The position numbers were made by a program, and so were the translations under genes. DNA of 64,000 nt from an uncultured Candidatus Saccharibacteria bacterium (lineage in GTDB: Bacteria; Patescibacteriota; Minisyncoccia; Minisyncoccales; GWA2-38-27): contig CAYMZK010000001.1 in assembly GCA_964394985.1 (NCBI GenBank), positions 63,957-127,956 of the forward strand. The letters run 5' to 3'. Below the pieces are notes generated by a model. It was given only the letters and a program-made list of their open reading frames with translations. It was not told where the DNA came from and searched no databases. Each line of letters opens with the position of its first letter. Position 1 is the stretch's first letter. Below are positions 44,600 through 63,502 of this stretch, one piece after another.

Positions 44600-46750
44600 T
44601 TAAATATTAACTTCAATTACTTTCATTGTATCATTTCCAAAAATGTCCACGACTTTAACGGCAATTTTACGCCGTCCTTTCTCGCATTCGCGGGAAACGC
44701 TTTTCAGTTCAATGGAGCGGTCTTTTTTCGTTCGGAAAGACTGCCACTCATTCTCAAAAATATAATTTCCCGTCCACGCTTCCTCAATTTCTCCGTTTTC
44801 TTTTTTTACGCGGACAAGCTCTTTTTTACTTTCAAAATCAAAATCAACCGCCCAATAGTCAATCCAATCCGTCCATTTTTTAGTCAAAACCTCTCGCTTT
44901 ACAATTCCGTCTTTGTCTTTGGAAATTTTAATGATATTGCCTTGTTCAACTAAAACTTTATCAGAGCCTTTTTTGAGACTGGCAATAACATTGTCAACAA
45001 TATCCTGATTATAATAAACGGAAAAATCAGTCAGCTCTATTGCCACTGTTCCGGGTGTTCGCTTTCCGGCAGATTTGATATGCGGTTTAACTTCTATATA
45101 GCTCACATCATGAAATTGAATTTGATTTTTCTCAATCGCTCGCTTATCAAAAACTTCTCGTGGAATATGCTTAAGGGCTAAATCAATTCCTTTTGCTTTG
45201 GCTTCTTCCTGGATTTTCGGAAACAACCCCATTTCATATTCAAAAGAAAGAATATCAACTTTGGTGATCTGTTTTTCAATACACTCTTTGATTACTTCCT
45301 CTACAAAAAGCCGTGAAGCGGGTAAGTTTATTGGTCCAATAGCCACCAATCGCCCCGCTTTTTTAGCGGCAAAAGTTTTGAAATTATTTGTGCTTTCCGC
45401 TTTATACGCTTTGACAATCAGCTTTACAAAATCAGTTTCTTTTTTAGCAAGCTGTTTTTGCTTTTGTTCTTCTCGTAAGTCAGGATTGACACCAATATAA
45501 TGTTGGCGTTCGTATTTACCAAGGTTCAGTATTTCAAAGGCTCGGAAATCTGTTCCCGTTTTCTTCATTTCACGCTGGACGCTGATCATTCTTTTTCGCG
45601 TGGTGTGAATAGAAAATTTACCAAGATCAGAACCAATCCATTTTCTGCCTAGTTTTTCCGCAACAGCAAGTGTCGTTCCTGAACCGCAAAAAAAATCAGC
45701 AACAAGATCGCCCTCATTGGAAGAAGCTTTTATTATGCGTTCAAGGAGTTTTTCTGGCTTTTGGGTTGGATAATTAAGTATTTCTGGAGAATTAACAATC
45801 GTCTGAAAATTTGCTATATCATTCCACACGTCAGAAACGGGCACGCCTTTTGACTCATCCAAATAAACCCTTCTTGTTTTTGTTATGGGTTTATATCGCC
45901 TTCCGTCTTCATCAACTTTTGTAAACCTCTTTAATTGTGCCTCCGAATAGTCTTCAAATGGCTTGTTAAAAATTATATCTTCTGATGATTTAGAGTAGTA
46001 AAGAATATTTTCATGTCCTCTTACATAATTTTGCACCATACCTTTATATCCAGACGCAGCAGACATTGTCCAAACAATATTTCTTCTGAAATTATCTTTT
46101 CCAAAAACCTCATCCAAAACCAATCTCATATATCCACTAACGCGCCAATCACAATGCACATAAATACTGCCGTCATCGGCAAGTAAATCTTTCATCAAAC
46201 TTAGTCGTTCATAAATCATGGCGATAAAACTATCCGCACCCTTGCCCCAAGTGTCGCGATAAGCAAGCTCCTCCAATACATTCGGCTTTTTGGTTAGTTC
46301 ATCTTCGCCAATTTCCACTTTCATTGAAAAATCTGCACCCACATCAAACGGCGGATCAATATAAATAAGTTTTAGACCGCCTTCTTTTTCAATTTCCTCA
46401 CGCAATACACCGCTTTTTAAACTGGATAAAATAAGTTTGTTGTCTCCCCAAATCAGCTTGTTTGTCCAACCAGCAATTTGCCTACCTCTGTCATCAAAAT
46501 CAAAAAGCATTTGCTGGGCTTGTTTTTTGGTATCTTTTGTATTTTCCGCTCTTGGCTCATCAACCATTTCAATTGTTTGAAAGGGTAAGACAACATTAGA
46601 CACTTCAGAACTTTTCTCATTCCATACAAGCTCAACCTCTTTTTTATCCGCAAAAAGCAAAAAACGAAATTTGTCCGGAAGTGGCTTCCCGGATTCAATA
46701 TATTTGATAATATCTCGTTTCTCGTTTTCGGTTAGATTAATTTTATCCAT
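44600..46750 (-). CDS. type III R-M Mod subunit (beta-class N6-adenine or N4-cytosine DNA methyltransferase)
   Basis: Motif [12 protein letters not shown] precedes motif [25 protein letters not shown], the beta-class order. 716 aa. Confidence 0.8.
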
Positions 46751-49583: not shown

Positions 49584-50741
49584 TTAGGCTTTGTAGTCTA
49601 TAGCCCTAACGTTTTCTTCTTTCTGATTATACTTAGTAAAAACCTTATTCTTAATAGGGACTAATCTCAGTCCATTCGGAACAGTTCTTCCAGGAGCAAT
49701 AATGATTCCTGAACCAAGATATACTCCATGGCCCAAACATGAACCGAGAAAAAGATTTCCCGAATCTTCCCTACAACTATTGCTCTCTACAAGAACATTC
49801 TTTCTATCGAAGCGAAAATCAGTCAAGCTAACATTTGCCCCGATAAAAACATTCTTTCCTGTTAGGGTGGCCGAAACAAATCCCGTCACAGAGAAAGTCT
49901 CAGGATAAAGGGCCGAGAAAAGAATGTGCCCATGCAAAATTTTACAACCAGCTCCTATGACTGATTCTTCAACAACAACTCTGTTGCCAATATGAGCATT
50001 GTCGCCAATCACAGAGGCCCTAATGACTGCACCGGCCTCAATTGTGACATTCCTACCGACAATGCTAGCCTCTACAACAGCTGATTTGTGAATTTTGCAG
50101 TTTTTCCCCACCTTGTTAAGATTTCGGAAAACTTTCCACGGCAGAAGCACCACCTTAGACATTTTCTTAATCCTAGCAAGATTTGCCAAGGTAAATAGCA
50201 CATTCGCCACCCACAAGTTAACCCAGTGATTAATCAGGATAGCAAATATATCAGTCATCGGCACCGCATATCCATTATGATCGCCACACATATGATGCGG
50301 CGCAGGAACCCGGCAATCAAACTGATCGCAATCAATCACTACCACAGCTTCCACTTTTTTGCCACTTTTCGACGGAAAATACCATAATGGCATTTCTATA
50401 GAATCTTCACAGTCTTTTGTTTCCTGCAGAGAAGCTGCCGTTCGTAGCGTAGTTATTCCCTTTTTTAATCGGCACACAACAGGACCTCGCAATAACCTTG
50501 CTTTGACTATAAATTGCGACAGAAATTCTGGAGTAAAACACAAACACTCACTAAAAACAATACACTCTTCCTCAAAATCACCGCTAGGAAAATCCATGAC
50601 TACATTAAAATCAATACCCAATTTAAATAAGGTTTCTTTTTGATAATCATACAATTTCCTGTTTCCAACTAGGCATTCTCTGGGATGTTCTCCAAACGGC
50701 TCGATCTTCTTATCCAAATCAACTAACAGATATGCTTTCAT
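49584..50741 (-). CDS. left-handed beta-helix (hexapeptide-repeat) protein, GlmU-like nucleotidyl/acyltransferase family
   Basis: Many [LIV]G..x..[LIV] hexapeptide turns (IGNRVVVEESVIGAGCKILHGHIL...). GC content above neighbours. Confidence 0.5.
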   Translation of the reverse strand: MKAYLLVDLDKKIEPFGEHPRECLVGNRKLYDYQKETLFKLGIDFNVVMDFPSGDFEEECIVFSECLCFTPEFLSQFIVKARLLRGPVVCRLKKGITTLRTAASLQETKDCEDSIEMPLWYFPSKSGKKVEAVVVIDCDQFDCRVPAPHHMCGDHNGYAVPMTDIFAILINHWVNLWVANVLFTLANLARIKKMSKVVLLPWKVFRNLNKVGKNCKIHKSAVVEASIVGRNVTIEAGAVIRASVIGDNAHIGNRVVVEESVIGAGCKILHGHILFSALYPETFSVTGFVSATLTGKNVFIGANVSLTDFRFDRKNVLVESNSCREDSGNLFLGSCLGHGVYLGSGIIIAPGRTVPNGLRLVPIKNKVFTKYNQKEENVRAIDYKA

Positions 50742-50775
50742 TTTTTATCTCCTAAATCAATAGTTATTCAATTGT

Positions 50776-50827
50776 TTAAGTGCTATCAACACTATACTAA
50801 AATATTAATTTAAAGTCAAATTTTTGG
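50776..50827. repeat. copy 1 of a ~52-bp direct repeat (copy 2 at 52421-52472)
   Basis: ttaagtgctatcaacactatactaaaatattaatttaaagtcaaatttt against ttaagtactaccaatactatactaaaatattaatttaaagtcaaatttt. Confidence 0.75.
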
Positions 50828-50859
50828 CAAAAACTGATATTTTTTGGTAATATGAATGA

Positions 50860-51483
50860 ATGAAGGTTACCAATAAATTATTGTTCGACAAAAAGGAAAT
50901 CGGGAAAATAATTTTTGATTCGAATGATTTTTGTATTTCCAAAATAAAAAAACAGATAAACAGAAGCATATCAGAATTAAATAAATTTTATAAAATAAAA
51001 ATTCCAAAAATAAATATTGAATTAATTTATTCCAAGACCAAATTCGATGAGATAATAAAAAGAAAGTCTCCAAATTGGCTTGTGGGAATTACTATTAAGA
51101 ATAAGATATACATATTCAGCCCGCTCTGTATGGAAAAATACACCTCGCACAATAAAAAAGATTTTAACAAAAATTTAAACCATGAAATTTGTCATCTTTT
51201 TAACATGGCTATAAATAAAAAACTACCAACATGGATAGATGAGGGCTCAGCCCTATACTTATCAAAACAAAAAAAGAATCATAGTTTTAATAAATCCGAC
51301 TGGCTGTTTTTTATAAATAAATTGAATAGCAGAATGACTATAAAGACATTCACGGATCATAATGGCTATAAAATAGCATATCATATGACCGATAAAATAG
51401 TTAAAAAAAGGGGGCTAAAATATTTACTGAAATTAATAAAAGAGCCTTCTCGTCTTGGACGAGAAGGCTTGTTTGAAAGCTAG
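50860..51483 (+). CDS. hypothetical HExxH (zinc-metallopeptidase-motif) protein
   Basis: NHEICHLFNMA contains HExxH with a downstream Glu (IDEGSALY); 207 aa; very AT-rich. Confidence 0.45.
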   Translation: MKVTNKLLFDKKEIGKIIFDSNDFCISKIKKQINRSISELNKFYKIKIPKINIELIYSKTKFDEIIKRKSPNWLVGITIKNKIYIFSPLCMEKYTSHNKKDFNKNLNHEICHLFNMAINKKLPTWIDEGSALYLSKQKKNHSFNKSDWLFFINKLNSRMTIKTFTDHNGYKIAYHMTDKIVKKRGLKYLLKLIKEPSRLGREGLFES

Positions 51484-51599
51484 CTGTTGTCGCATCCGCG
51501 ACAATCACAACTAACTCCACTAGTTGAAACAGACTTGGGAACTGGTTTTGTTAAACGATTCCAGCCCTTGCGTCGTTTCAATACGACTTTTGCCTTCAT
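51480..51599 (-). CDS. 39-aa Cys-containing peptide (candidate RiPP precursor), absent from the ORF track
   Basis: Hand translation of the minus strand gives MKAKVVLKRRKGWNRLTKPVPKSVSTSGVSCDCRGCDNS. AGGAGGTG SD with a 6-nt spacer. Lies immediately downstream of the SPASM-domain ORF. Confidence 0.45.
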   Translation of the reverse strand: MKAKVVLKRRKGWNRLTKPVPKSVSTSGVSCDCRGCDNS

Positions 51600-51616
51600 T
51601 GATATCACCTCCTTTC

Positions 51617-52438
51617 TTATTGTATAAAGGTTGCAGGGTCAAAATGTGTCCACAATAAAGGGCAACCACCTATACAGGTTCCCCAATATTTGCATTTCAT
51701 ACATTTCTCAACCGGATAGCGCCAAAGATCTTTTCTAAATTCAAATGGAACGCTATCAGGGTTATTCCATTCCTTAAGAAAATCATTTTTTAGAAAGAAA
51801 TTTCCATTTCTTCCTCTAACATTATTAATTAATGGAGCATCGGAAAAGTGAGTGCATGGGAGAATAGACCCGTTTGTGTCAAAAACCGCACCTTCTCCTT
51901 CGTACATATGGCATCCCACAGATATCCATTTCAAAGCAATCATTTCATTCAAAACATCTTTATCTATAAGACATATAGGAAATGTTGCGTTTAGATGAAA
52001 GGATAAATTTGCGACTCTAGCCTTACGAAATAAAGAGGTGACTGTCTCGCCCAATTCTTTCGGAGATAAGCACTGGTCAGCAAAAACTCCTTTCTCGGAA
52101 ACTACTGGTATAGCACAGTTAAAAACACTTTTTTCAACTCCTAGTTTCTGAGTTAATCTTACAATATCTAACAAATGATGATAGTTATTCTTGGTTATTG
52201 TCGTTAAAGAGCTGACAGACCCAACAACAGAACAGTTTTTGATTCCTGCCAACGTTTCTGCGAAACTACCATAGCAACAAGTCGCCATGTCATGCTCTTC
52301 GGAGCTGGCTGATATCAAGGAAATAGTCAACTTATTCAACCCGCACCGGAAAATGTCTCGAGCAAAAACCGGATTGGAAAATTTTCTTCCGTTACTCACA
52401 ATTCGTTGTCGGTTATTCAATTGGTTAAGTACTACCAA
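51617..52438 (-). pseudogene. radical-SAM/SPASM protein fragment (SPASM half only; no CxxxCxxC cluster)
   Basis: C-terminus CMKCKYWGTCIGGCP is a textbook SPASM CxxCx5CxGGC motif. The ORF begins with TTG directly after an upstream terminator and the 52-bp repeat, and has no radical-SAM Cys triad. Confidence 0.55.
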
Positions 52439-52513
52439 TACTATACTAAAATATTAATTTAAAGTCAAATTTTACTAAAATAAAAGGCGGTGAAGATTGT
52501 TTTCTTTTGGAGA

Positions 52514-53650
52514 TTAAATCTTCACCGCTTTGAGCTTTTGCTCTTTTCTGCCAAAGTCAACTGACTTAGCATACTTTAGTATTTTGGCAAGAAATGCCTC
52601 GTTAATGTCTGGGAGCCATTCATATTCTCCCAAAAGGGTTTGAGGGGCGTTCACTACCTGAAATTGGCATTCGTGAGTTATGTACGGAACATATTGAGCT
52701 GTAGCTCTGTCAAAGATTCTTTGTAACTTGCTCAACAAAGATCTTGAGCTGTAGTCAGCTGAATCGCCGTAGTAAAAACCCTTAATGCCAAGATGCTTTA
52801 GGGAGATATCGTTAATCCAGCGAATACACTTGGGTCTGGGATGAACAACATGAAATGCTTGGTTGGTTGACGGAACGTCAATCAGCTTAGTTAAAGTTCT
52901 TCCTGCCCAGTCAATTGGCACTATGTTCAGAGTAGAAGTTGGAGAAAGACCAATATAGATTGGCAATGTAAGCATTCCATCGGAGTCAAAGAAGACTCCT
53001 TCTATCTTATATTTTTCTAGTTCCTGTCTACTTTTGGCGAGTAAACTTTGCCTTAAGTGCCACAACGCACCCTCAAACGCATAATACCCATCAAAAGAGG
53101 ATATATGGCCCGTTTTAGAGTCGCCCACCATAATGGCTAAGCGATAAATAGAATAGCTTCCGTTCTTCCGTGCTCTGACTAATCGTTCAGCTTCTTTCTT
53201 TGTTCTTTCATAGACATTGCGACATGTCTGACCTTTGTCAAAGTCATCTTCCGCGAAGAAAGAAGAATCTCCTGCCACATAAGCCGTGCTAACTTGATGG
53301 AATTCTTCAATCCCCAACTCTTCTGCTAAATGCAAAAGGTTTTTAACTCCACCAACATTAACTTTGCTTATCTGCTCGGCTAAAGATTCCTTAAACTTGA
53401 TTGAAGCTGCGCAATTAACAAGCTTGTCAATTTTTCCTTTCCACAAATCCCTTTGAGAAAGAAGCACCCCGCAATTAGGCAAAGTTACATCACCTTGCCA
53501 AGCAACATTTCCTGCTAAAATACGCTCTTTGGCCTGCTGGCCGTTTTTGGCTCTGGTTAGACAAATAATCTTGTGCCCTCTCTTTTCTAAGAGAGGAGCA
53601 AGAGTAGAGCCGACTGTTCCAGTAGCCCCAGTTAACAGAATGGTTGACAT
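52514..53650 (-). CDS. NAD(P)-dependent SDR-family reductase/epimerase (thioester-reductase-like)
   Basis: Rossmann LLTGATGTVGSTL, catalytic YxxxK (YERTK); 378 aa. Terminator hairpin gcggtgaagat...atcttcaccgc overlaps the stop. Confidence 0.6.
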   Translation of the reverse strand: MSTILLTGATGTVGSTLAPLLEKRGHKIICLTRAKNGQQAKERILAGNVAWQGDVTLPNCGVLLSQRDLWKGKIDKLVNCAASIKFKESLAEQISKVNVGGVKNLLHLAEELGIEEFHQVSTAYVAGDSSFFAEDDFDKGQTCRNVYERTKKEAERLVRARKNGSYSIYRLAIMVGDSKTGHISSFDGYYAFEGALWHLRQSLLAKSRQELEKYKIEGVFFDSDGMLTLPIYIGLSPTSTLNIVPIDWAGRTLTKLIDVPSTNQAFHVVHPRPKCIRWINDISLKHLGIKGFYYGDSADYSSRSLLSKLQRIFDRATAQYVPYITHECQFQVVNAPQTLLGEYEWLPDINEAFLAKILKYAKSVDFGRKEQKLKAVKI

Positions 53651-53868: not shown

Positions 53869-54566
53869 ATATTTGAGTTTAGATAAATAACGTCTTTTCT
53901 TTCCACTACAACTTCCCATCCTTTTTCTTTTGCATGATCATATAGCTTCTGATTTGGATTAAAGCAAATTGGCCTTTCTACTATTTCTAAAAAGGGAATG
54001 TCACTTTCGGTATCACCCATGCCAATTGATTCCTTCAAGCTAAGTTTTTCTTTTTCAATCGCCCTTCTTAAAACCTCCGCTTTATCTTCAATAAAATCAA
54101 GATAAAGAACTTCTCCAGTAAGCTTTTTTTGATTGTCTATTTCAAGTATTCGGCCATATGATTTATCAAAGCCCATTTTCTCACAAAATTCTTCAACTAA
54201 TATTTTGGGAGAATGAGAAATAGCTAAAAGATAATAGTTTTTCTTTTTTAATTCCTCTATAAAATCTCTGGAGTATTTATAAACCCGGTTTCCGTGAAAA
54301 GAAATAACCTTTTTAGATATTTCTAAAAAATCATCATATTTAACTCCCTTAATGTTTTCTATAAAAGCAGTAATAACCGCATGAATATAATTATCATAAG
54401 AACCGCTTCTGTTGAGCCAGTTATTATATGCTTCTTGGTATGACTCTTTTGTTTCTTTAGAAAAAATCCCCTCTTGAATAAGAGCATCTGTTAACTCTAT
54501 TAATAGACTAGATCTAAAGATAGTCCCGTCAATATCAAAAATAGCCACCTTCTTCTTTTCTTCCAT
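53865..54566 (-). CDS. HAD-superfamily hydrolase
   Basis: Motif I VAIFDIDGTIF; 233 aa. Confidence 0.7.
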   Translation of the reverse strand: MEEKKKVAIFDIDGTIFRSSLLIELTDALIQEGIFSKETKESYQEAYNNWLNRSGSYDNYIHAVITAFIENIKGVKYDDFLEISKKVISFHGNRVYKYSRDFIEELKKKNYYLLAISHSPKILVEEFCEKMGFDKSYGRILEIDNQKKLTGEVLYLDFIEDKAEVLRRAIEKEKLSLKESIGMGDTESDIPFLEIVERPICFNPNQKLYDHAKEKGWEVVVERKDVIYLNSNI

Positions 54567-54890
54567 AAATTTAATTATTTATTTTTATCCTCTAGAAATT
54601 TTTCAAAAGACCGGTCGTAGGTCTTTTCTGCTTCTTTTGAAAAATAGCAACCCGGCAACTCCCCTCTTTCCCGATGATATTTCACACACTCACAACAAAG
54701 CCCTTTCCTCTCACAAGGATAACTACAATTACAATTATTTAAATTTTCCTCTCTTCTGCACTCCATAATTTTTTATTATTTGAGTAAAGCCGGACTTCAC
54801 CCAAGACTTACTTTCTTTAAGATTAACACTTTAGATGCCAAAAAACAACTTACCTACTTCTTTTTATTTTTTTACTCCTGACCCCTTTTT
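54560..54890. repeat. ~330-bp exact duplication unit (copy 2 at 60487-60825)
   Basis: Identical sequence including the Cys-rich ORF and the upstream leader with the ctcctgacccc motif. Confidence 0.8.
54575..54766 (-). CDS. 63-aa Cys-rich small protein (8 Cys); identical duplicate at 60502-60693
   Basis: [42 protein letters not shown]... Gene and ~130 bp of upstream sequence are duplicated exactly. Confidence 0.55.
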
Positions 54891-57053: not shown

Positions 57054-57725
57054 TTACGCTCCCCTTTTACACTTCTTTATAATTGTATTTAGAGAATTAA
57101 CTAAACTTATTATTTTAAAATCACTTATTATTTTTTTTAAATCATAGCCCCCTAACCACATCTTTTCAATTATTTCTCTAATTTCTTGATGAACTTGATA
57201 CCCCCTATCTTCAATATTTTTGAATTCTGAATTATTAATTACTGTAAGGACTTCTTTTAATTCCTGAATTCCATTATTTGTATAGCCTAATTTTTTGCAA
57301 AAATCCATCCATTTGTCTAAAAAGGCAATATGAGAAAATTCATGTATAATTGTGCTAGGGATGGGGTTAGAAAAATTATAAGAAGAAGCTTTTACCGAAA
57401 GCAAAATGCATTTCTTCTCAAGATATATGGCCGATGTTTTGGTAGTAACGATATAACACTTAAGGATTTCTGGGAGATTGTATTCATAAATTTTAAAAAT
57501 AGTTTTCTTAAGATCCTCATCTCTATTCCATAAAGTATAATATTCTAGAATTTTTTCTTGGGCTATTTTTTTATCTTCTTCTGTAATAGAAATCTTATCT
57601 GGAAATTTCTTCCCAAACATTTCTTTATATTTTAGAGTTGATTCCCAAGCCCTCTTATTTATTTGTTCATCATATTTAAAATCCATAAAATTAGAAGGGT
57701 GGACCATCAATGCTTGACAGTCCAC
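57054..57725 (-). CDS. hypothetical HExxH (zinc-metallopeptidase-motif) protein
   Basis: TIIHEFSHIAF contains HExxH; 223 aa. Sits directly downstream of the candidate precursor peptide and the radical-SAM maturase. Confidence 0.5.
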   Translation of the reverse strand: MDCQALMVHPSNFMDFKYDEQINKRAWESTLKYKEMFGKKFPDKISITEEDKKIAQEKILEYYTLWNRDEDLKKTIFKIYEYNLPEILKCYIVTTKTSAIYLEKKCILLSVKASSYNFSNPIPSTIIHEFSHIAFLDKWMDFCKKLGYTNNGIQELKEVLTVINNSEFKNIEDRGYQVHQEIREIIEKMWLGGYDLKKIISDFKIISLVNSLNTIIKKCKRGA

Positions 57726-57742
57726 CCCTTGCTAAGAAGGGC

Positions 57743-57868
57743 AAGGCATAAGTTAAACGCAACCGTCACAGTTGCATTCGTAACATGGGGAAGGACAACC
57801 ATCATTGGATGTCCTTATTCCTTGCGGAATTTCGCTGAGCACCTCAGTAATCTTCAGCATTTTAATTA
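57743..57868 (-). CDS. 41-aa Cys-rich peptide, candidate RiPP precursor, absent from the ORF track
   Basis: Hand translation of the minus strand gives MEELIKMLKITEVLSEIPQGIRTSNDGCPSPCYECNCDGCV. GGAG lies 8 nt upstream of the ATG. It is 22 nt downstream of the rSAM/SPASM stop. Local GC is above background. Confidence 0.5.
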
Positions 57869-57889
57869 ATTCTTCCATGATACTTTCTC

Positions 57890-58936
57890 CTACTCAATAA
57901 ATGGTTTTACAATGTCTTCTGGGTTATCGATCGCCCATCTTAAAGGACATCCTCCGCCACAATCTTGATACATTATACAATCTCTACACTTGAACGAAGG
58001 ATATGATCCTACCTGGTTGTAATAACCCAACACAGTTTCTGAATTTATCCACTGCCTTAATGAATCAGCGTTAACAAAATCGGTTCCGTAATGCCCTATT
58101 GGATAACCAAATAGAGCGTTACACATTAAAATACTTCCACGCTCGTCCCATATCAAGCCCTTACCCTTCCTAAGCTGACATACGCTAATGATTTGATCTT
58201 TTTTCTTAAGCTGTTTGATAAATTCACGTTCGAAGAGACAAAAAGGAATCATCATTTCAAACACTAACTTGCCTTTTGTAATTTTATCCAACTCAGGATA
58301 ATCCCTCATAATATTGGATGCCAACTCACGAGAGGGAACCATGTAAGTTGAGTCTGGCTTATTGTCCGTAAAAGTCGTGGAACAAAAATTAATCTGAACT
58401 CCTTTCGCTCCACAATCCATTGCAAATTGAACCATCTCCGGAAGACTGCCACAGTAGAAAGAATTATAGGTAATTGCGATTTGGCAATAAAACGCAACAC
58501 AAGCTCTTTCTACCCCTTTTTTCATTTTGTCAAAATCAGCTGAGCCAGAAACTTCTTTAAATTGTTGTGGACCCCAAGCTTTGAGGGAAAGCCCCATTTT
58601 GTCATTTGGATTTCTTTGATATTCTTCCCAAAATTCATCATCTCCAAAACGAAGAGCGTTTGTTACTAAAATACTCTTTATCCCTATCTCTTTACAGAAA
58701 CGATTATATTTAGGAAGAGCATCCCACAAAGTAGGCTCTCCCCCAATAGGAAGCATCCCTTCAACCCCTATTTCTTTTGACAAGAGCGTTAAATCTCTTG
58801 CCAACTGAAAAGACATTTCGTTTGCCTGATAATCTGTCCCTTCAGCATAGCACCAACGACATCTCAGATTACATCTCCTGTTAACTGTAAGCCAAGACAT
58901 TTTTGGTTCAATTCTATTCTTCTTTCCTTCAAACAT
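57890..58936 (-). CDS. radical SAM enzyme with C-terminal SPASM domain (RiPP-maturase-like)
   Basis: CNLRCRWCY is the CxxxCxxC radical-SAM cluster. C-terminal CRDCIMYQDCGGGCP is the SPASM CxxCx5CxGGC motif. 348 aa. Confidence 0.8.
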   Translation of the reverse strand: MFEGKKNRIEPKMSWLTVNRRCNLRCRWCYAEGTDYQANEMSFQLARDLTLLSKEIGVEGMLPIGGEPTLWDALPKYNRFCKEIGIKSILVTNALRFGDDEFWEEYQRNPNDKMGLSLKAWGPQQFKEVSGSADFDKMKKGVERACVAFYCQIAITYNSFYCGSLPEMVQFAMDCGAKGVQINFCSTTFTDNKPDSTYMVPSRELASNIMRDYPELDKITKGKLVFEMMIPFCLFEREFIKQLKKKDQIISVCQLRKGKGLIWDERGSILMCNALFGYPIGHYGTDFVNADSLRQWINSETVLGYYNQVGSYPSFKCRDCIMYQDCGGGCPLRWAIDNPEDIVKPFIE

Positions 58937-59092: not shown

Positions 59093-59401
59093 ATGAAAAA
59101 GAAATACCACCGTCTAACTCTAGCTGATCGAGTTCCTAGGGGAGAGCTTAAGAAGGAATTAATGAGAGGATTAAGAAGAGAAAGAAGATTAAGACAGAGT
59201 AGAAAATATGCTCATTATCGCAAACAGAGAATTAAAGACATAGTAAGCATCTCTGAAAGGCCTAAAGAAGTAAAAGATAGAATTGTTCCTGGACACTGGG
59301 AAGGAGACCTAATAGTGGGAAAACAACACAGTAGCGCACTAGGAACATTGGTAGAAAGGACCACTAGATTAACTCTTTCTACGAGAAGTTTTATCAATTA
59401 A
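59093..59401 (+). pseudogene. IS30-family transposase fragment
   Basis: [12 protein letters not shown], the IS30 signature. Only 102 aa, with no DDE domain. Confidence 0.6.
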
Positions 59402-59514: not shown

Positions 59515-60489
59515 TTAAATATTTGGGTTTAATATTTTTTCGGCTGGAGAAATTCCTCCCAAAACCTTGTGAGGGAAATAATTCCAGACATCGTTTATTA
59601 AGTATAACATTCTTTCAAATTCTTCCGGACTTTGATTTTGATCAAGCTTTTTTACTATTTCATCTAATTCTTTATGGCTTTTTTCATTATAAATAATTTC
59701 TTTAATCTCATCTATAGTTATATTCGCTTTATATTTTTTGATTAAAGCCAGAAGGTTTTTTTCTATTTCTTTTCTTTTTTTAGCGATACTTTCTTTTGTC
59801 TCTTTTTTCACCGATTTTGCCATATCTGGATATACAAACATTTTGTCATCAAGACCGCTCATTTCAAGCTCATCCATCAACTCATTAGCAATATCGCCCT
59901 TAATACCCTCTTCTCTCCCAAAATTTTTTTCTAAGGCAGCAAGTCGCATCTGCTTTCTGGTTTCTGGGTTATTCTTTTCTTTTTTTATTTTTTCTTGCTC
60001 TTTTTTACTTAAATTTAAAAAGGATTTTTTTGTTTCTTGAGCAACCTCATAATTTTTTTTAACAAACTCACTTCCTAAACTTAGGCTTTTCGCTCGATTT
60101 ATCCACGCAAGACCTTCTTCAAAATCAAATTCACTAATATAACTACTGCCTAAATCAAGATATGCCTTGTAATCCATTAAATTTAAATTTACAGCATTTC
60201 TTAAATCCTTTCTTCCTTCCTCTGTCTTTCCTAGCATAATTTTTGTCCAGCCCAAACTTCTAATAACTTCCGGGTGATTAGGATCTAATCTATCTGCCTC
60301 TAAAAAAGATTTTTCTGCCAAAGAGAATAACCCTGTTTTTAATCTGGCGACTCCTAAAAGATAATACCCATAGGCATTATTTGGAAATTTTTTAATAATT
60401 TTTTTCAAAGCCAAAATTGCTTCAATAAATTTATTTTCATTCATTAAAGAATCTACTTCTTCAATATATTTTTCAAAATCTTTTTTCAT
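59515..60489 (-). CDS. TPR repeat protein
   Basis: Multiple TPR-like units (AYGYYLLGVARLKTGLFSLAEKSFLEADRLDPNH...). Confidence 0.6.
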   Translation of the reverse strand: MKKDFEKYIEEVDSLMNENKFIEAILALKKIIKKFPNNAYGYYLLGVARLKTGLFSLAEKSFLEADRLDPNHPEVIRSLGWTKIMLGKTEEGRKDLRNAVNLNLMDYKAYLDLGSSYISEFDFEEGLAWINRAKSLSLGSEFVKKNYEVAQETKKSFLNLSKKEQEKIKKEKNNPETRKQMRLAALEKNFGREEGIKGDIANELMDELEMSGLDDKMFVYPDMAKSVKKETKESIAKKRKEIEKNLLALIKKYKANITIDEIKEIIYNEKSHKELDEIVKKLDQNQSPEEFERMLYLINDVWNYFPHKVLGGISPAEKILNPNI

Positions 60490-60501
60490 AAGTTTACTTA
60501 T

Positions 60502-60693
60502 TTATTTATTTTTATCCTCTAGAAATTTTTCAAAAGACCGGTCGTAGGTCTTTTCTGCTTCTTTTGAAAAATAGCAACCCGGCAACTCCCCTCTTTCCCG
60601 ATGATATTTCACACACTCACAACAAAGCCCTTTCCTCTCACAAGGATAACTACAATTACAATTATTTAAATTTTCCTCTCTTCTGCACTCCAT
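60502..60693 (-). CDS. 63-aa Cys-rich small protein (duplicate)
   Basis: Identical to 54575-54766. Confidence 0.55.
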
Positions 60694-60836
60694 AATTTTT
60701 TATTATTTGAGTAAAGCCGGACTTCACCCAAGACTTACTTTCTTTAAGATTAACACTTTAGATGCCAAAAAACAACTTACCTACTTCTTTTTATTTTTTT
60801 ACTCCTGACCCCTTTTTTATTTGTGTAGTGCCATGG

Positions 60837-62044: not shown

Positions 62045-62093
62045 ATACTATCTCTCAAAACTTCATTCTCAAAAATATAATTTCCCGTCCACG
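62045..62093 (-). other. 43-bp remnant identical to part of the type III mod gene (44748-44795)
   Basis: cattctcaaaaatataatttcccgtccacgcttcctcaatttc is identical in both places. Translated on the minus strand it encodes [15 protein letters not shown], as in Mod. Confidence 0.55.
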
Positions 62094-62104
62094 CTTCCTC
62101 AATT

Positions 62105-63502
62105 TCATAATTTTATTTTTAGCTCGGATAATTTGCTCACGATCCATTTTTTCGCTTCTTGTTCGTCTTTTTCAATCGCCATTTCCACGCCTCGCTTGGC
62201 AATTTCAAGTAAAAATTTTGATAATTTTCTATCATTAAACGATTTTTCAATTAACTTTTTGATTTCTTTTTGTTTATCTACTTTTAAAATAGGAATTAAG
62301 GTTGCTTTTACTTGATCTGGTCTCCAATGGTTGATAATTGATCCGCCAGCGTCACGCTCAATTTGTTTCTGCACGATTACGGAATTTAAAACAAGTGTTA
62401 AGTACTCTGGTATTATCTGTTTGTTATCCATTTTTAATCTCAAAATACCACCAGATACAATCATTTTTTGCGGTTCTTCGTTCAAAAAATAGGCCGTGCC
62501 GGGCGTTGCGTCTTTTGAAAGCAGAATTTCACCTTTCTTTGGCTGATGTGTTTTTAATGTTTCGTATATTTCTTTGGATAAAAATTGCTGATTATTGGTA
62601 GAAAGCTCAAATTTTGAAAGATTGCTCACGCGGACAAAGGGCACACCGTTTTCTTGATATGCTTCGCTTCCCGGTTCAACACTCTTTTTCACTTTTACCA
62701 AATTTCCCAGCTCATCAAATCCGCTCTTGTATTTTTTCACCGCTTTAACGATTTCGTCATATTTCGGCTGAAAATATTCTGCGTCAAAACGATCTGATTC
62801 TTTGGTGTTGGAAAAGTTTTTGACAAAAGCGAGTTCGTGTTTTGGCTTCCAGCTTAAAAGTCTGAGTTCGGAAAGGAGTAATTGCTCGGCTTGGGAATAG
62901 AGATAGTCTGATTCTAAAACTAACTTGCAACATTGAGAAACTATTTTGTTTAATATTTCTCTTAACGCCAAAATATTTTTAGGTATCGGTAAATTTAATA
63001 AATCGTGTTCTTGAAATCTTGGGTGCTGAGTTCCGCCCTGTCCCCAAAATAAAATCTTTTGAACAAACTTGGTTAATAAAAAGGGAGTCAAGAAAGATAT
63101 ATTACCTTTATCCTTACCTCTCAATACAAAAAATTCAGTTGTTAAATATGCTTTATTAAGAAAGGTTGGTATGTATGCGATTTGTTTTAAATACGGTCTA
63201 AGTCTTGAGATTATGACATCTCCGCTTTTCGCCCTTCTTTTTAGGCTAATTCTTTCCTCTGTTTGTGCAAGATTCTTTGTAAGAATATGTGAAAATGCTG
63301 CTCCTGTATCATAAATTTCAACATTAGAATCTTTTGGAATTTCGTTTTTTTTAATACTTAAGATAATATCACTCAAAGAAATATTTGAGTTATCTTTTAA
63401 AATTCTGAGAGTATCCAGCTTTTCCGGATGATAATATTCCGAATCAATTCTAAAATCAGAATTTTCTTTTACCGTTTTATAATTTACAACTGAATATTGC
63501 AT
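62105..63502 (-). CDS. restriction-modification specificity subunit (HsdS-like, two target-recognition domains)
   Basis: Two internally similar halves (DFRIDSEYYHPEKLD against DRFDAEYFQPKYDE) and a conserved central spacer (PIPKNILALREILNKIV); 465 aa. Confidence 0.55.
   Translation of the reverse strand: MQYSVVNYKTVKENSDFRIDSEYYHPEKLDTLRILKDNSNISLSDIILSIKKNEIPKDSNVEIYDTGAAFSHILTKNLAQTEERISLKRRAKSGDVIISRLRPYLKQIAYIPTFLNKAYLTTEFFVLRGKDKGNISFLTPFLLTKFVQKILFWGQGGTQHPRFQEHDLLNLPIPKNILALREILNKIVSQCCKLVLESDYLYSQAEQLLLSELRLLSWKPKHELAFVKNFSNTKESDRFDAEYFQPKYDEIVKAVKKYKSGFDELGNLVKVKKSVEPGSEAYQENGVPFVRVSNLSKFELSTNNQQFLSKEIYETLKTHQPKKGEILLSKDATPGTAYFLNEEPQKMIVSGGILRLKMDNKQIIPEYLTLVLNSVIVQKQIERDAGGSIINHWRPDQVKATLIPILKVDKQKEIKKLIEKSFNDRKLSKFLLEIAKRGVEMAIEKDEQEAKKWIVSKLSELKIKL

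What the first reader, a model, noticed from the sequence alone, without database searches (positions are those of the whole stretch)
50776..52475. Second, decayed copy of the same module: SPASM-only fragment, a second CxCxGC peptide and an HExxH gene
ORF 51617-52438 ends with CMKCKYWGTCIGGCP (SPASM) but has no radical-SAM Cys triad. It begins with TTG right after the upstream gene's terminator and a 52-bp repeat. Directly downstream is another hand-found peptide (51480-51599, minus; MKAKVVLKRRKGWNRLTKPVPKSVSTSGVSCDCRGCDNS) with a perfect AGGAGGTG SD. Its CDCRGC C-terminus parallels the CNCDGC of the intact module's peptide. The neighbouring plus-strand gene 50860-51483 carries HEICH. The same three parts recurring 6 kb apart argues that they are a functional unit. 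The shared C(N/D)C(D/R)GC motif looks like the conserved modification site.
Basis: partly seen in the sequence, partly recalled or inferred. Interest (0 to 1): 0.7.

Follow-up and report, generated by a model that had tools for sequence, protein, structure and literature searches.

The report
Truncated peptide-maturase cassette in a Patescibacteria genome
This is a rare three-gene cassette for making a modified cysteine-rich peptide whose key enzyme gene has lost its first 80 codons, so it records gene loss in a tiny-genome bacterium rather than a new kind of system.

Summary
ORF 51617-52438(-) is a radical-SAM/SPASM gene missing its first ~80 codons, including the CxxxCxxC cluster site and the GGEPT motif. 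A 39-aa peptide gene with a perfect SD follows it, then a convergent HExxH gene. A 62-nt direct repeat (58/62 identical) brackets all three.

- **Not a decayed duplicate.** The two enzymes are 21-27% identical. Full-length orthologues (337-357 aa, 45-56% identical) sit in the same synteny in other Patescibacteria metagenomes.
- **The peptide is real.** Eleven orthologues all end in CDC[RK]GCD.
- **The HExxH gene is a conserved neighbour.** It is an M1-like gluzincin peptidase, at most remotely related to the intact module's HExxH protein.
- **Truncated rather than eroded.** The fragment has no stops and keeps 78 of 86 invariant residues and all SPASM cysteines.
- **The repeat is a promoter copy.** It is a near-identical copy of the neighbouring gene's promoter and 5'UTR, and it now abuts codon 81.
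- **CxCxGC is not family-wide.** It is fixed in this subfamily only. Relatives of the intact module have other Cys-rich cores.

The broader architecture (enzyme, Cys-rich peptide, small zincin) recurs in dozens of genomes. It is an uncharacterised RiPP-like family, and thioether chemistry is inferred, not shown.

The parts
52412..52473 (-). Repeat copy B. It holds a sigma-70-like promoter (TTGACT 52468-52463, 17-nt spacer, TATAGT 52445-52440) and the start of a 5'UTR with the motif TTAACCAATTGAATAAC. It abuts the truncated enzyme gene.
   Evidence: 62-nt direct repeat, 94% identical; 10/12 promoter match, joint best on this strand; 34-nt perfect core, 0 expected by chance.
50763..50824 (-). 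Repeat copy A. It is the native promoter and 5'UTR of the hexapeptide-repeat transferase gene 49584-50741(-). An SD (AGGAGA) and the ATG at 50741 follow it.
   Evidence: The orthologous intergenic region in L001 carries the same TTTAACAATTGAA motif.
51617..52402 (-). 5'-truncated radical-SAM/SPASM maturase gene, corresponding to residues 81-337 of its orthologues. The CxxxCxxC cluster site, the GGEPT motif, the native RBS and the native promoter are missing. All seven SPASM cysteines are kept. The mechanical ORF extends to the TTG at 52438, inside the repeat.
51606..51613 (-). Shine-Dalgarno AGGAGGTG of the peptide gene.
   Evidence: Orthologues have AGGAGGTG at the same place.
51480..51599 (-). 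Precursor peptide gene (39 aa) with the C-terminal core SCDCRGCDNS.
   Evidence: Eleven orthologous peptides share G(W)N...CDC[RK]GCD.
51443..51469 (-). Intrinsic-terminator-like hairpin (12 bp, 7 GC) directly after the peptide stop codon. It overlaps the 3' end of the convergent peptidase gene.
50860..51483 (+). Convergent 207-aa gluzincin metallopeptidase (HEICH at 108-112, third ligand E128 in WIDEG). It has the fold of a stand-alone M1-like catalytic domain.
   Evidence: Peptidase_MA_2, weak; 25 of 34 relatives hit Peptidase_MA_2, best E 1e-11. H108, E109, H112 and E128 invariant. AlphaFold2 pLDDT 95.6. Foldseek hits to M61, EryP, LTA4H and ERAP/APN.
52475..52513 (-). Hairpin (GCGGTGAAGATT...AATCTTCACCGC) followed by a T-run at the end of the SDR gene 52514-53650(-). 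It separates that gene from repeat copy B.
   Evidence: Read directly from the sequence. The scan did not report it because the loop is longer than 8 nt.
57890..58936 (-). Intact paralogous radical-SAM/SPASM maturase (type 1, 348 aa).
57753..57878 (-). Type-1 precursor peptide MEELIKMLKITEVLSEIPQGIRTSNDGCPSPCYECNCDGCV.
57054..57686 (-). Type-1 HExxH protein (HEFSH). The probable start is MDFKYD.

Best explanation
The locus is the syntenic orthologue of a rare three-gene cassette found in a few Patescibacteria. The cassette has three parts:
- a small radical-SAM/SPASM maturase with no RRE (RiPP recognition element) domain;
- a 44-aa precursor peptide ending GCDC[K/R]GCD, translationally coupled to the maturase gene;
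- a convergent ~207-aa M1-like zinc peptidase.

In this genome a deletion removed the maturase's promoter-proximal leader, its RBS and codons 1-80. The remaining codons 81-337 now directly follow a near-identical copy of the neighbouring transferase gene's promoter and 5'UTR start. Without the CxxxCxxC [4Fe-4S] site and the SAM-binding GGEPT motif the product cannot make a 5'-deoxyadenosyl radical, and it has no ribosome-binding site. The maturase is therefore a pseudogene.

The event looks recent, because the remnant shows no further erosion. The peptide gene keeps its SD and terminator, and the peptidase gene is intact. The peptide is probably still transcribed from the promoter copy, but its cognate enzyme cannot modify it.

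Shown: the truncation, the orthology and synteny, peptide conservation, the peptidase fold, and the identity of the repeat.

Inferred: that intact cassettes make a RiPP in which the enzyme cross-links or otherwise modifies the Cys-rich core (most likely thioether bonds, as in sacti- and ranthipeptides) and the zincin trims the leader; that promoter copy B is active; and that the deletion is recent.
For: Truncation. No rSAM motif and no PF04055 hit; the SPASM model is passed; profile matches start at ~75-119. Homology to orthologues starts at residue 81.

Orthology and synteny. Full-length orthologues P0002-P0007 are 337-357 aa, 45-56% identical, and carry PF04055. L001-L006 show the same gene order as window 53650-47266: SDR, rSAM, 44-aa peptide, convergent 207-aa peptidase, hexapeptide transferase, 7TM/GAF kinase.

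Cassette constancy. The same three genes occur in a different outer context in L007-L009, and also in L097, L098 (peptidase ORF cut at the contig end) and L103.

Peptide family. There are 11 members with invariant CDC.GCD.

No erosion. The fragment keeps 78 of 86 orthologue-invariant residues (91%). Leave-one-out values for real orthologues are 89-100%.

Repeat. It holds the joint-best promoter match on the strand, and copy A is followed by the transferase's SD and ATG.

Independent assembly. A separately built assembly contig, L010 from run SRR7048227, spans window 50795-52469 exactly, including the junction between the fragment and the repeat.

Peptidase..

Architecture in the sister family..
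Against: - No expression or chemistry data exist for any member.
- The modification type is unknown. Every curated maturase model scores far below its cut-off, and no precursor model matches.
- The peptidase family (532 clusters at 50% identity) is far larger than the maturase family (7 clusters at 90% identity). The peptidase may therefore have a general role and be only a neighbour.
- The lack of erosion could equally mean that the fragment is still under selection.
- The outer side of repeat copy B (its junction with the SDR terminator) is supported only by the deposited assembly and by synteny, not by an independent contig.
Confidence: 0.85

Rival explanations
1. Trans-maturation. The orphan type-2 precursor is still a substrate and is now modified by the intact type-1 maturase 6 kb away, whose own peptide ends in the same CxCxGC motif. 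The captured promoter keeps the orphan peptide expressed.
For: The peptide keeps its SD, its terminator and the invariant CDCRGCD core. A strong promoter copy sits upstream. The type-1 peptide of this genome ends CNCDGCV. The window peptide's leader is unusual for its family: it has a 5-aa deletion, has lost the ELP..QEG motif, and has net charge +8 against -5 to -1 in two orthologues.
Against: The enzymes are only 21-27% identical. The leaders are dissimilar, and the pairwise peptide match rests on the Cys motif alone. CxCxGC is not conserved in type-1 relatives, so the match may be coincidence. The odd leader fits relaxed constraint equally well.
Confidence: 0.08
2. The fragment is a working SPASM-only protein, for example an Fe-S or peptide-binding partner, expressed from an internal start.
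For: There are no stop codons in 273 codons. All seven SPASM cysteines and 91% of invariant residues are kept. An automated gene call in the public assembly predicted a 260-aa product from an internal GTG.
Against: There is no SD before the TTG or the GTG, although neighbouring genes have strong ones. The first ~80 residues, which carry the start of the radical-SAM core, are gone, so stable folding is doubtful (inference). No other truncated member was found among the type-2 relatives, apart from ORFs cut at contig ends.
Confidence: 0.05
3. Assembly artefact. The repeat caused a mis-join, and the real genome has a full-length gene or lacks the cassette (the 1.65-kb segment could also close into a circle on the repeat).
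For: A 34-nt perfect repeat core is longer than common k-mers. The independent contig L010 starts and ends inside that core.
Against: The junction between enzyme codon 81 and the diverged part of copy B lies inside L010, so it is present in reads. The assembled gene order matches the synteny of six related loci. No N-terminal piece exists elsewhere in the 64-kb window.
Confidence: 0.04

Closest known systems
Radical-SAM/SPASM thioether RiPP maturases: ranthipeptide PapB (freyrasin), SCIFF/CteB, and sactipeptide StsB (streptosactin)
   Same: Both have a radical-SAM core plus a 7-Cys SPASM domain. A short precursor with a Cys-rich C-terminal core is encoded next to the enzyme. PapB is of similar size (its profile is 330 positions) and links Cys to Asp/Glu (PMC9413430); the cores here are rich in Cys-Asp. 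StsA has an alternating CxCxC core (PMC10288494). The closest solved structures by sequence are SuiB, PqqE, CteB, SkfB and anSME.
   Different: Every curated model scores 15-57 bits against cut-offs of 131-650. No RRE domain or RRE partner gene was seen. The precursors match no curated family. The chemistry is untested. In the window copy the radical-SAM half is deleted.
The type-1 cassette of the same window (57054-58936) and its large, mostly Patescibacteria family
   Same: Same enzyme clade: shared N-terminal WL..xCNxxCxxCYA and C-terminal YPxxKCxxC...GGCPLxW motifs, and 27% identity over the full length. Both have a coupled Cys-rich peptide with a strong SD and a small HExxH protein as the third gene.
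   Different: They are distinct subfamilies. The type-1 zincin is co-directional and at best remotely related to the type-2 one. Type-1 cores are variable CxC repeats, whereas type 2 has a fixed GCDC[KR]GCD. The type-1 search returned 524 proteins with E <= 0.001, against 7 for type 2.
M1-family RiPP leader peptidases (EryP/AplP type) and Pfam Peptidase_MA_2
   Same: Gluzincin HExxH...E motif. The predicted fold matches M1/M61 catalytic domains, including the lanthipeptide peptidase EryP (7v9o). 25 of 34 family members hit Peptidase_MA_2.
   Different: It is only 207 aa, a bare catalytic domain without the N- and C-terminal M1 domains. Foldseek E-values are marginal (best 5.6e-4; TM 0.42-0.57 normalised to the query). 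The window protein alone is below the Pfam cut-off (17.1 against 32.4 bits). No activity is known.

Membership tests
Radical SAM superfamily (PF04055) | CxxxCxxC motif binding the [4Fe-4S] cluster that cleaves SAM | tested here: not met
   The window fragment has no such motif and no PF04055 hit. The orthologues P0002-P0007 and the intact paralogue do have it.
Radical SAM superfamily (PF04055) | SAM-binding GGEPT/L motif | tested here: not met
   The motif lies at residues ~56-60 of the orthologues, inside the deleted 80 residues.
SPASM domain proteins (TIGR04085) | C-terminal 7-Cys auxiliary-cluster domain scoring above the curated cut-off | tested here: met
   35.9 bits against a cut-off of 27. 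All seven Cys align with those of the orthologues.
Ranthipeptide / SCIFF system (TIGR03974 maturase, PapB NF047865) | Maturase scores above the family cut-off | tested here: not met
   PapB model: 15.3 bits (fragment) and 39.3 bits (intact paralogue) against 340. SCIFF maturase model: 26.3 bits against 425.
Ranthipeptide / SCIFF system | Precursor matches a curated precursor model | tested here: not met
   No NCBIfam or Pfam hit for either window peptide, or for ten family peptides at E <= 1.
Ranthipeptide / sactipeptide (chemical definition) | Cys sulfur to carbon thioether cross-links in the mature peptide | not testable with these tools
   This needs mass spectrometry or NMR of a peptide co-expressed with an intact maturase.
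Anaerobic sulfatase-maturating enzymes (TIGR03942) | Score above the cut-off, and a C/S-x-P/A-x-R substrate motif | tested here: not met
   30.8 and 41.6 bits against 349. The peptides have no CxPxR motif.
Gluzincin, clan MA (Peptidase_MA_2, PF13485) | HExxH plus a downstream Glu as third zinc ligand | tested here: met
   H108, E109, H112 and E128 are invariant in 34 relatives.
Gluzincin, clan MA (Peptidase_MA_2, PF13485) | Score above the Pfam gathering cut-off | tested here: inconclusive
   The window protein scores 17.1 bits against 32.4, but 25 of 34 relatives match with best E 1e-11. The fold search supports an M1-like domain.
Type-2 cassette (defined here) | Enzyme, then a coupled peptide ending CDC[KR]GCD, then a convergent HE[ILV]CH peptidase | tested here: met
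   All three are present in the window in the same order and orientation as in L001-L009, L097 and L103. The enzyme is truncated only in the window.

The most novel reading that the evidence does not exclude
After losing its own maturase, the type-2 precursor was kept, placed under a captured strong promoter, and re-targeted to the paralogous type-1 maturase, whose substrate shares the CxCxGC end. Its re-shaped, highly basic leader would reflect that adaptation. This would be a natural case of RiPP substrate hand-over between divergent radical-SAM enzymes.
Probability: 0.08. Interest if true: 0.6.

Novelty: new member of a known kind. Interest (0 to 1): 0.38.

Why it matters
For the window itself the result is modest: a recently disabled maturase gene, which shows ongoing gene loss in a reduced Patescibacteria genome and a promoter duplication at the breakpoint.

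The wider value lies in what the comparison exposed. A compact cassette without an RRE domain (enzyme, Cys-rich CxC peptide, small zincin) is common in Patescibacteria and present in some Firmicutes, Myxococcales and Nitrospirota. No curated maturase model reaches its cut-off, no curated precursor model matches at all, and my paper searches found no description of the family.

The rare type-2 branch has an almost invariant core (QEGTGCDC[KR]GCDKD). That makes it a clean target for finding out what these enzymes do to cysteine-rich peptides in organisms that are thought to have little secondary metabolism.

Tried and rejected
- **Strict C.C.GC search.** Across the 80 type-1 loci, six ORFs carry it near their C-terminus, and only two of those lie directly after the enzyme gene. 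I rejected it as a family signature.
- **HExxH comparison.** BLASTP and a small-profile hhalign of the two HExxH proteins showed no relation. Larger profiles gave only a 64.5% probability over the zincin core. I treat them as the same clan at most.
- **HExxH profiles against PDB sequences.** Nothing useful.
- **Single-sequence AlphaFold2 of the peptidase.** pLDDT 36.7, discarded.
- **Rfam on 50000-53000.** Only a chance-level hit, so the repeated 5'UTR is not a known RNA element.
- **Operator-like motif TTAAACAATTGAATAA.** Its count in the window is not above chance apart from the two repeat copies.
- **Search for a closer relative with an intact gene.** The metagenome scan for the promoter core found nothing. 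The metagenome scan with the type-2 profile found five loci, none above 55% identity. The protein search found none above 56% apart from the identical sequence. The ancestral state of the breakpoint could therefore not be reconstructed.
- **tblastn for the missing N-terminus elsewhere in the window.** It hit only the paralogue.
- **Literature searches.** No description of this family was found.
Full report
**What is there**

On the minus strand, window 52473 to 51443 reads in this order:
- a sigma-70-like promoter (TTGACT, 17-nt spacer, TATAGT; 10/12 match, joint best on the strand);
- an ORF of 273 codons, 51617-52438;
- 3 nt, then AGGAGGTG, then 6 nt;
- a 39-codon ORF, 51480-51599, encoding MKAKVVLKRRKGWNRLTKPVPKSVSTSGVSCDCRGCDNS;
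- a 12-bp GC-rich hairpin with a T-run, 51469-51443.

Convergent with these is a 207-codon gene, 50860-51483, carrying HEICH. A 62-nt direct repeat (50763-50824 and 52412-52473; 58/62 identical, 34-nt perfect core) brackets the three genes. None is expected by chance.

**The large ORF is a 5'-truncated radical-SAM/SPASM gene**

It passes the SPASM model TIGR04085 (35.9 bits, cut-off 27). It has no PF04055 hit and no CxxxCxxC, and its matches to radical-SAM/SPASM profiles begin at profile positions ~75-119.

A database search found seven clusters. One is the identical sequence. The other six are full-length proteins of 337-357 aa, 45-56% identical, all with PF04055. In a multiple alignment, homology starts at orthologue residue 81 (IVSNGR, window 52402). 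The deleted part holds the C13-x3-C17-x2-C20 cluster site and the GGEPT motif.

The nominal TTG start at 52438 lies inside the repeat, 2 nt after the -10 hexamer, so it is upstream of any likely transcription start. No SD precedes it or the internal GTG. This contrasts with AGGAGGTG before the peptide gene and AGGAGA before the neighbouring transferase gene. That the TTG is not a real start is my inference.

The missing N-terminus is not encoded elsewhere in the 64-kb window; tblastn hits only the paralogue.

**The remnant is truncated, not eroded**

It has no stop codons and keeps all seven SPASM cysteines. It also keeps 78 of the 86 positions that are invariant among the six orthologues (91%). 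The same leave-one-out measure for the orthologues themselves gives 89-100%. Either the deletion is recent or the remnant is still constrained. I favour a recent deletion because the fragment lacks a ribosome-binding site and the start of the radical-SAM core.

**It is an orthologue at a conserved position, not a duplicate of the intact module**

Six metagenome contigs (L001-L006) show this gene order: SDR, radical-SAM (337 aa), 44-aa ORF, convergent 207-aa HExxH gene, hexapeptide-repeat transferase, 7TM/GAF histidine kinase. That is exactly the order of window 53650 to 47266.

Other contigs place the enzyme, peptide and HExxH genes in a different outer context (L007-L009), and the trio is also seen in L097, L103 and, with the peptidase ORF cut at the contig end, L098. 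The trio therefore travels together.

The intact enzyme at 57890-58936 is only 21% identical to the fragment and 27% identical to a full-length type-2 orthologue. It belongs to a separate and much larger family: 524 proteins with E <= 0.001, mostly Patescibacteria.

**The peptide is real**

The small ORF follows the enzyme gene in every type-2 locus, and AGGAGGTG precedes it wherever I read the upstream sequence. A profile search recovered only eight clusters in 5.8 billion proteins. Together with L096, L098 and the window, there are eleven distinct sequences. The consensus is M.A..VL..L.GWNKPT..V.E.ELP..L.QEGTGCDC[KR]GCDKD, and CDC.GCD is invariant.

The window's peptide is the outlier. It is 39 aa rather than 44-59, it has lost the ELP and QEG motifs, and its net charge is +8 against -5 and -1 in two orthologues. 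This fits relaxed constraint on the leader after loss of the enzyme. It could also reflect adaptation to something else.

**The HExxH gene**

Its family is large: 532 clusters at 50% identity with E <= 0.001. H108, E109, H112, E128, W73, G129 and Y170 are invariant in 34 sampled members. 25 of those 34 match Pfam Peptidase_MA_2 (best E 1e-11), although the window protein alone is below the cut-off.

An AlphaFold2 model built with that alignment has pLDDT 95.6. Foldseek against the PDB returns M61 and M1 catalytic domains, including LTA4H, ERAP, aminopeptidase N and the lanthipeptide leader peptidase EryP. E-values are marginal but probabilities are 0.9-1.0. The protein is a minimal gluzincin.

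The HExxH protein of the intact module (HEFSH) is not detectably similar by BLASTP. With deep profiles the two align only over the strand-plus-HExxH core (hhalign probability 64.5%, E 6e-5). They are analogous parts and at best remote homologues.

**The architecture is general**

I fetched 80 genomic loci of the type-1 family.
- About 45 have an SD-preceded ORF of 25-110 aa with at least 3 Cys in its last 25 residues, starting within a few tens of bases of the enzyme's stop codon.
- 37 of the 65 loci in which an enzyme ORF was recognised have an HExxH ORF within 1.6 kb. Of these, 33 that lie directly downstream on the same strand were aligned with the window's type-1 protein.

Typical cores are CDCKCDCGYCPCCQCK, CDCDCAPPH and CPCKCQCQCDCPKD.

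It does not support a shared CxCxGC site. In the window's own type-1 subclade the cores are CYECNCDGCV (77%-identical enzyme), CCECSSCFD (66%) and CENCNCEW (68%).

**The repeat**

Copy A is the promoter and the first ~30 nt of the 5'UTR of the transferase gene 49584-50741; its SD and ATG follow. Copy B has the same promoter and the same UTR start (TTAACCAATTGAATAAC) and then runs straight into enzyme codon ~78-81.

In L001 the regions upstream of the enzyme gene and of the transferase gene both carry TTTAACAATTGAA but are otherwise dissimilar. The motif is therefore an ancestral shared feature, and possibly a common operator, which is my inference. The near-identity over 62 nt is specific to this genome.

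The simplest history is a deletion from just after the motif to codon 80, together with or preceded by conversion or duplication of the promoter. I could not resolve the order of events, because no relative closer than 55-56% identity exists in the collections searched.

A separately built assembly contig from run SRR7048227 equals window 50795-52469 exactly. It therefore contains the junction between the fragment and the repeat. It ends in the perfect repeat core on both sides, as expected for a k-mer assembler. Synteny supports the outer joins.

**Mechanism**

In intact cassettes I expect the following sequence of events:
1. The precursor is translated, coupled to the enzyme.
2. The radical-SAM/SPASM enzyme abstracts a hydrogen atom in or near the CDC[KR]GCD core and forms Cys-derived cross-links.
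3. The zincin removes the leader.

Thioether bonds are the most likely product, by analogy with PapB (Cys-Asp/Glu links, PMC9413430) and with the CxCxC sactipeptide streptosactin (PMC10288494). All of this is inference. Curated maturase models score far below their cut-offs, no precursor model matches, and the closest solved structures (SuiB, PqqE, CteB, SkfB, anSME) are distant.

In the window the first chemical step is impossible for the cognate enzyme.

**Verdict**

This is a genuine, well-observed locus. It is a recently truncated member of an uncharacterised but recognisable kind of RiPP-like cassette. It is not a decayed duplicate, and the shared motif is not a family signature. Interest is moderate to low for the locus itself and somewhat higher for the family it points to.

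Noticed in passing
window 54556-54855 and 60483-60782: A 300-nt direct repeat (97% identical). Each copy carries a 63-aa Cys-rich DUF6485 ORF (54575-54766 and 60502-60693). The two copies bracket a 5.9-kb segment that holds the intact rSAM module, a 102-aa ORF at 59093-59401 that resembles a transposase fragment (by eye; no Pfam hit) and a TPR gene. This may be a segmental duplication or a mobile island.
   Followed up: partly
window 54874, 56482, 57030, 59439, 59492, 60801 (all minus strand): A 15-nt element, AAAGGGGYCAGGAGC, occurs six times within 6 kb. At the copies I read it is followed by a T-run, and it tends to lie near the 3' ends of minus-strand genes. Zero copies are expected by chance. 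Its function is unknown; it may be a terminator-associated or repeated intergenic element.
   Followed up: partly
window 44748-44805 and 62063-62120: A 58-nt repeat (91% identical). A piece of the 3' coding end of the large methylase-like gene 44600-46750 recurs just past the end of the 465-aa gene 62105-63502. I read these two as type III Mod-like and type I S-subunit-like by eye, without a test. The repeat suggests recombination among restriction-modification genes.
   Followed up: no
L001 5895-6003 and 7815-7920; window 50764-50779 and 52413-52428: The palindrome-containing motif TTTAACAATTGAA lies in the 5'UTR of both the maturase gene and the hexapeptide-transferase gene in a related genome as well as in the window. 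This hints at co-regulation of the cassette with the transferase/kinase operon.
   Followed up: partly
L091 3340-4335; L007 8017-9051: A Peptidase_S66 (LD-carboxypeptidase/MccF-like) gene sits next to the HExxH gene in one type-1 locus and one type-2 locus. It could be an accessory or immunity function.
   Followed up: no
L046, L048, L055 (one Myxococcales MAG, JBNKEI01): Three type-1-like maturase loci occur in a single genome, and two of them (L048, L055) have long Cys-rich precursors. Multiple paralogous cassettes per genome are therefore not unusual.
   Followed up: no
L087 3369-3578; L089 3368-3577: Chloroflexi-type loci have an ORF upstream of the distant rSAM homologue that ends ...HSCACACACAGCACACAGGGR. 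This is a different Cys-Ala repeat core.
   Followed up: no
window 57687-57725: The mechanical ORF of the type-1 HExxH gene starts at a GTG 13 codons upstream of the conserved MDFKYD start used by its relatives. The true start is probably 57686.
   Followed up: yes
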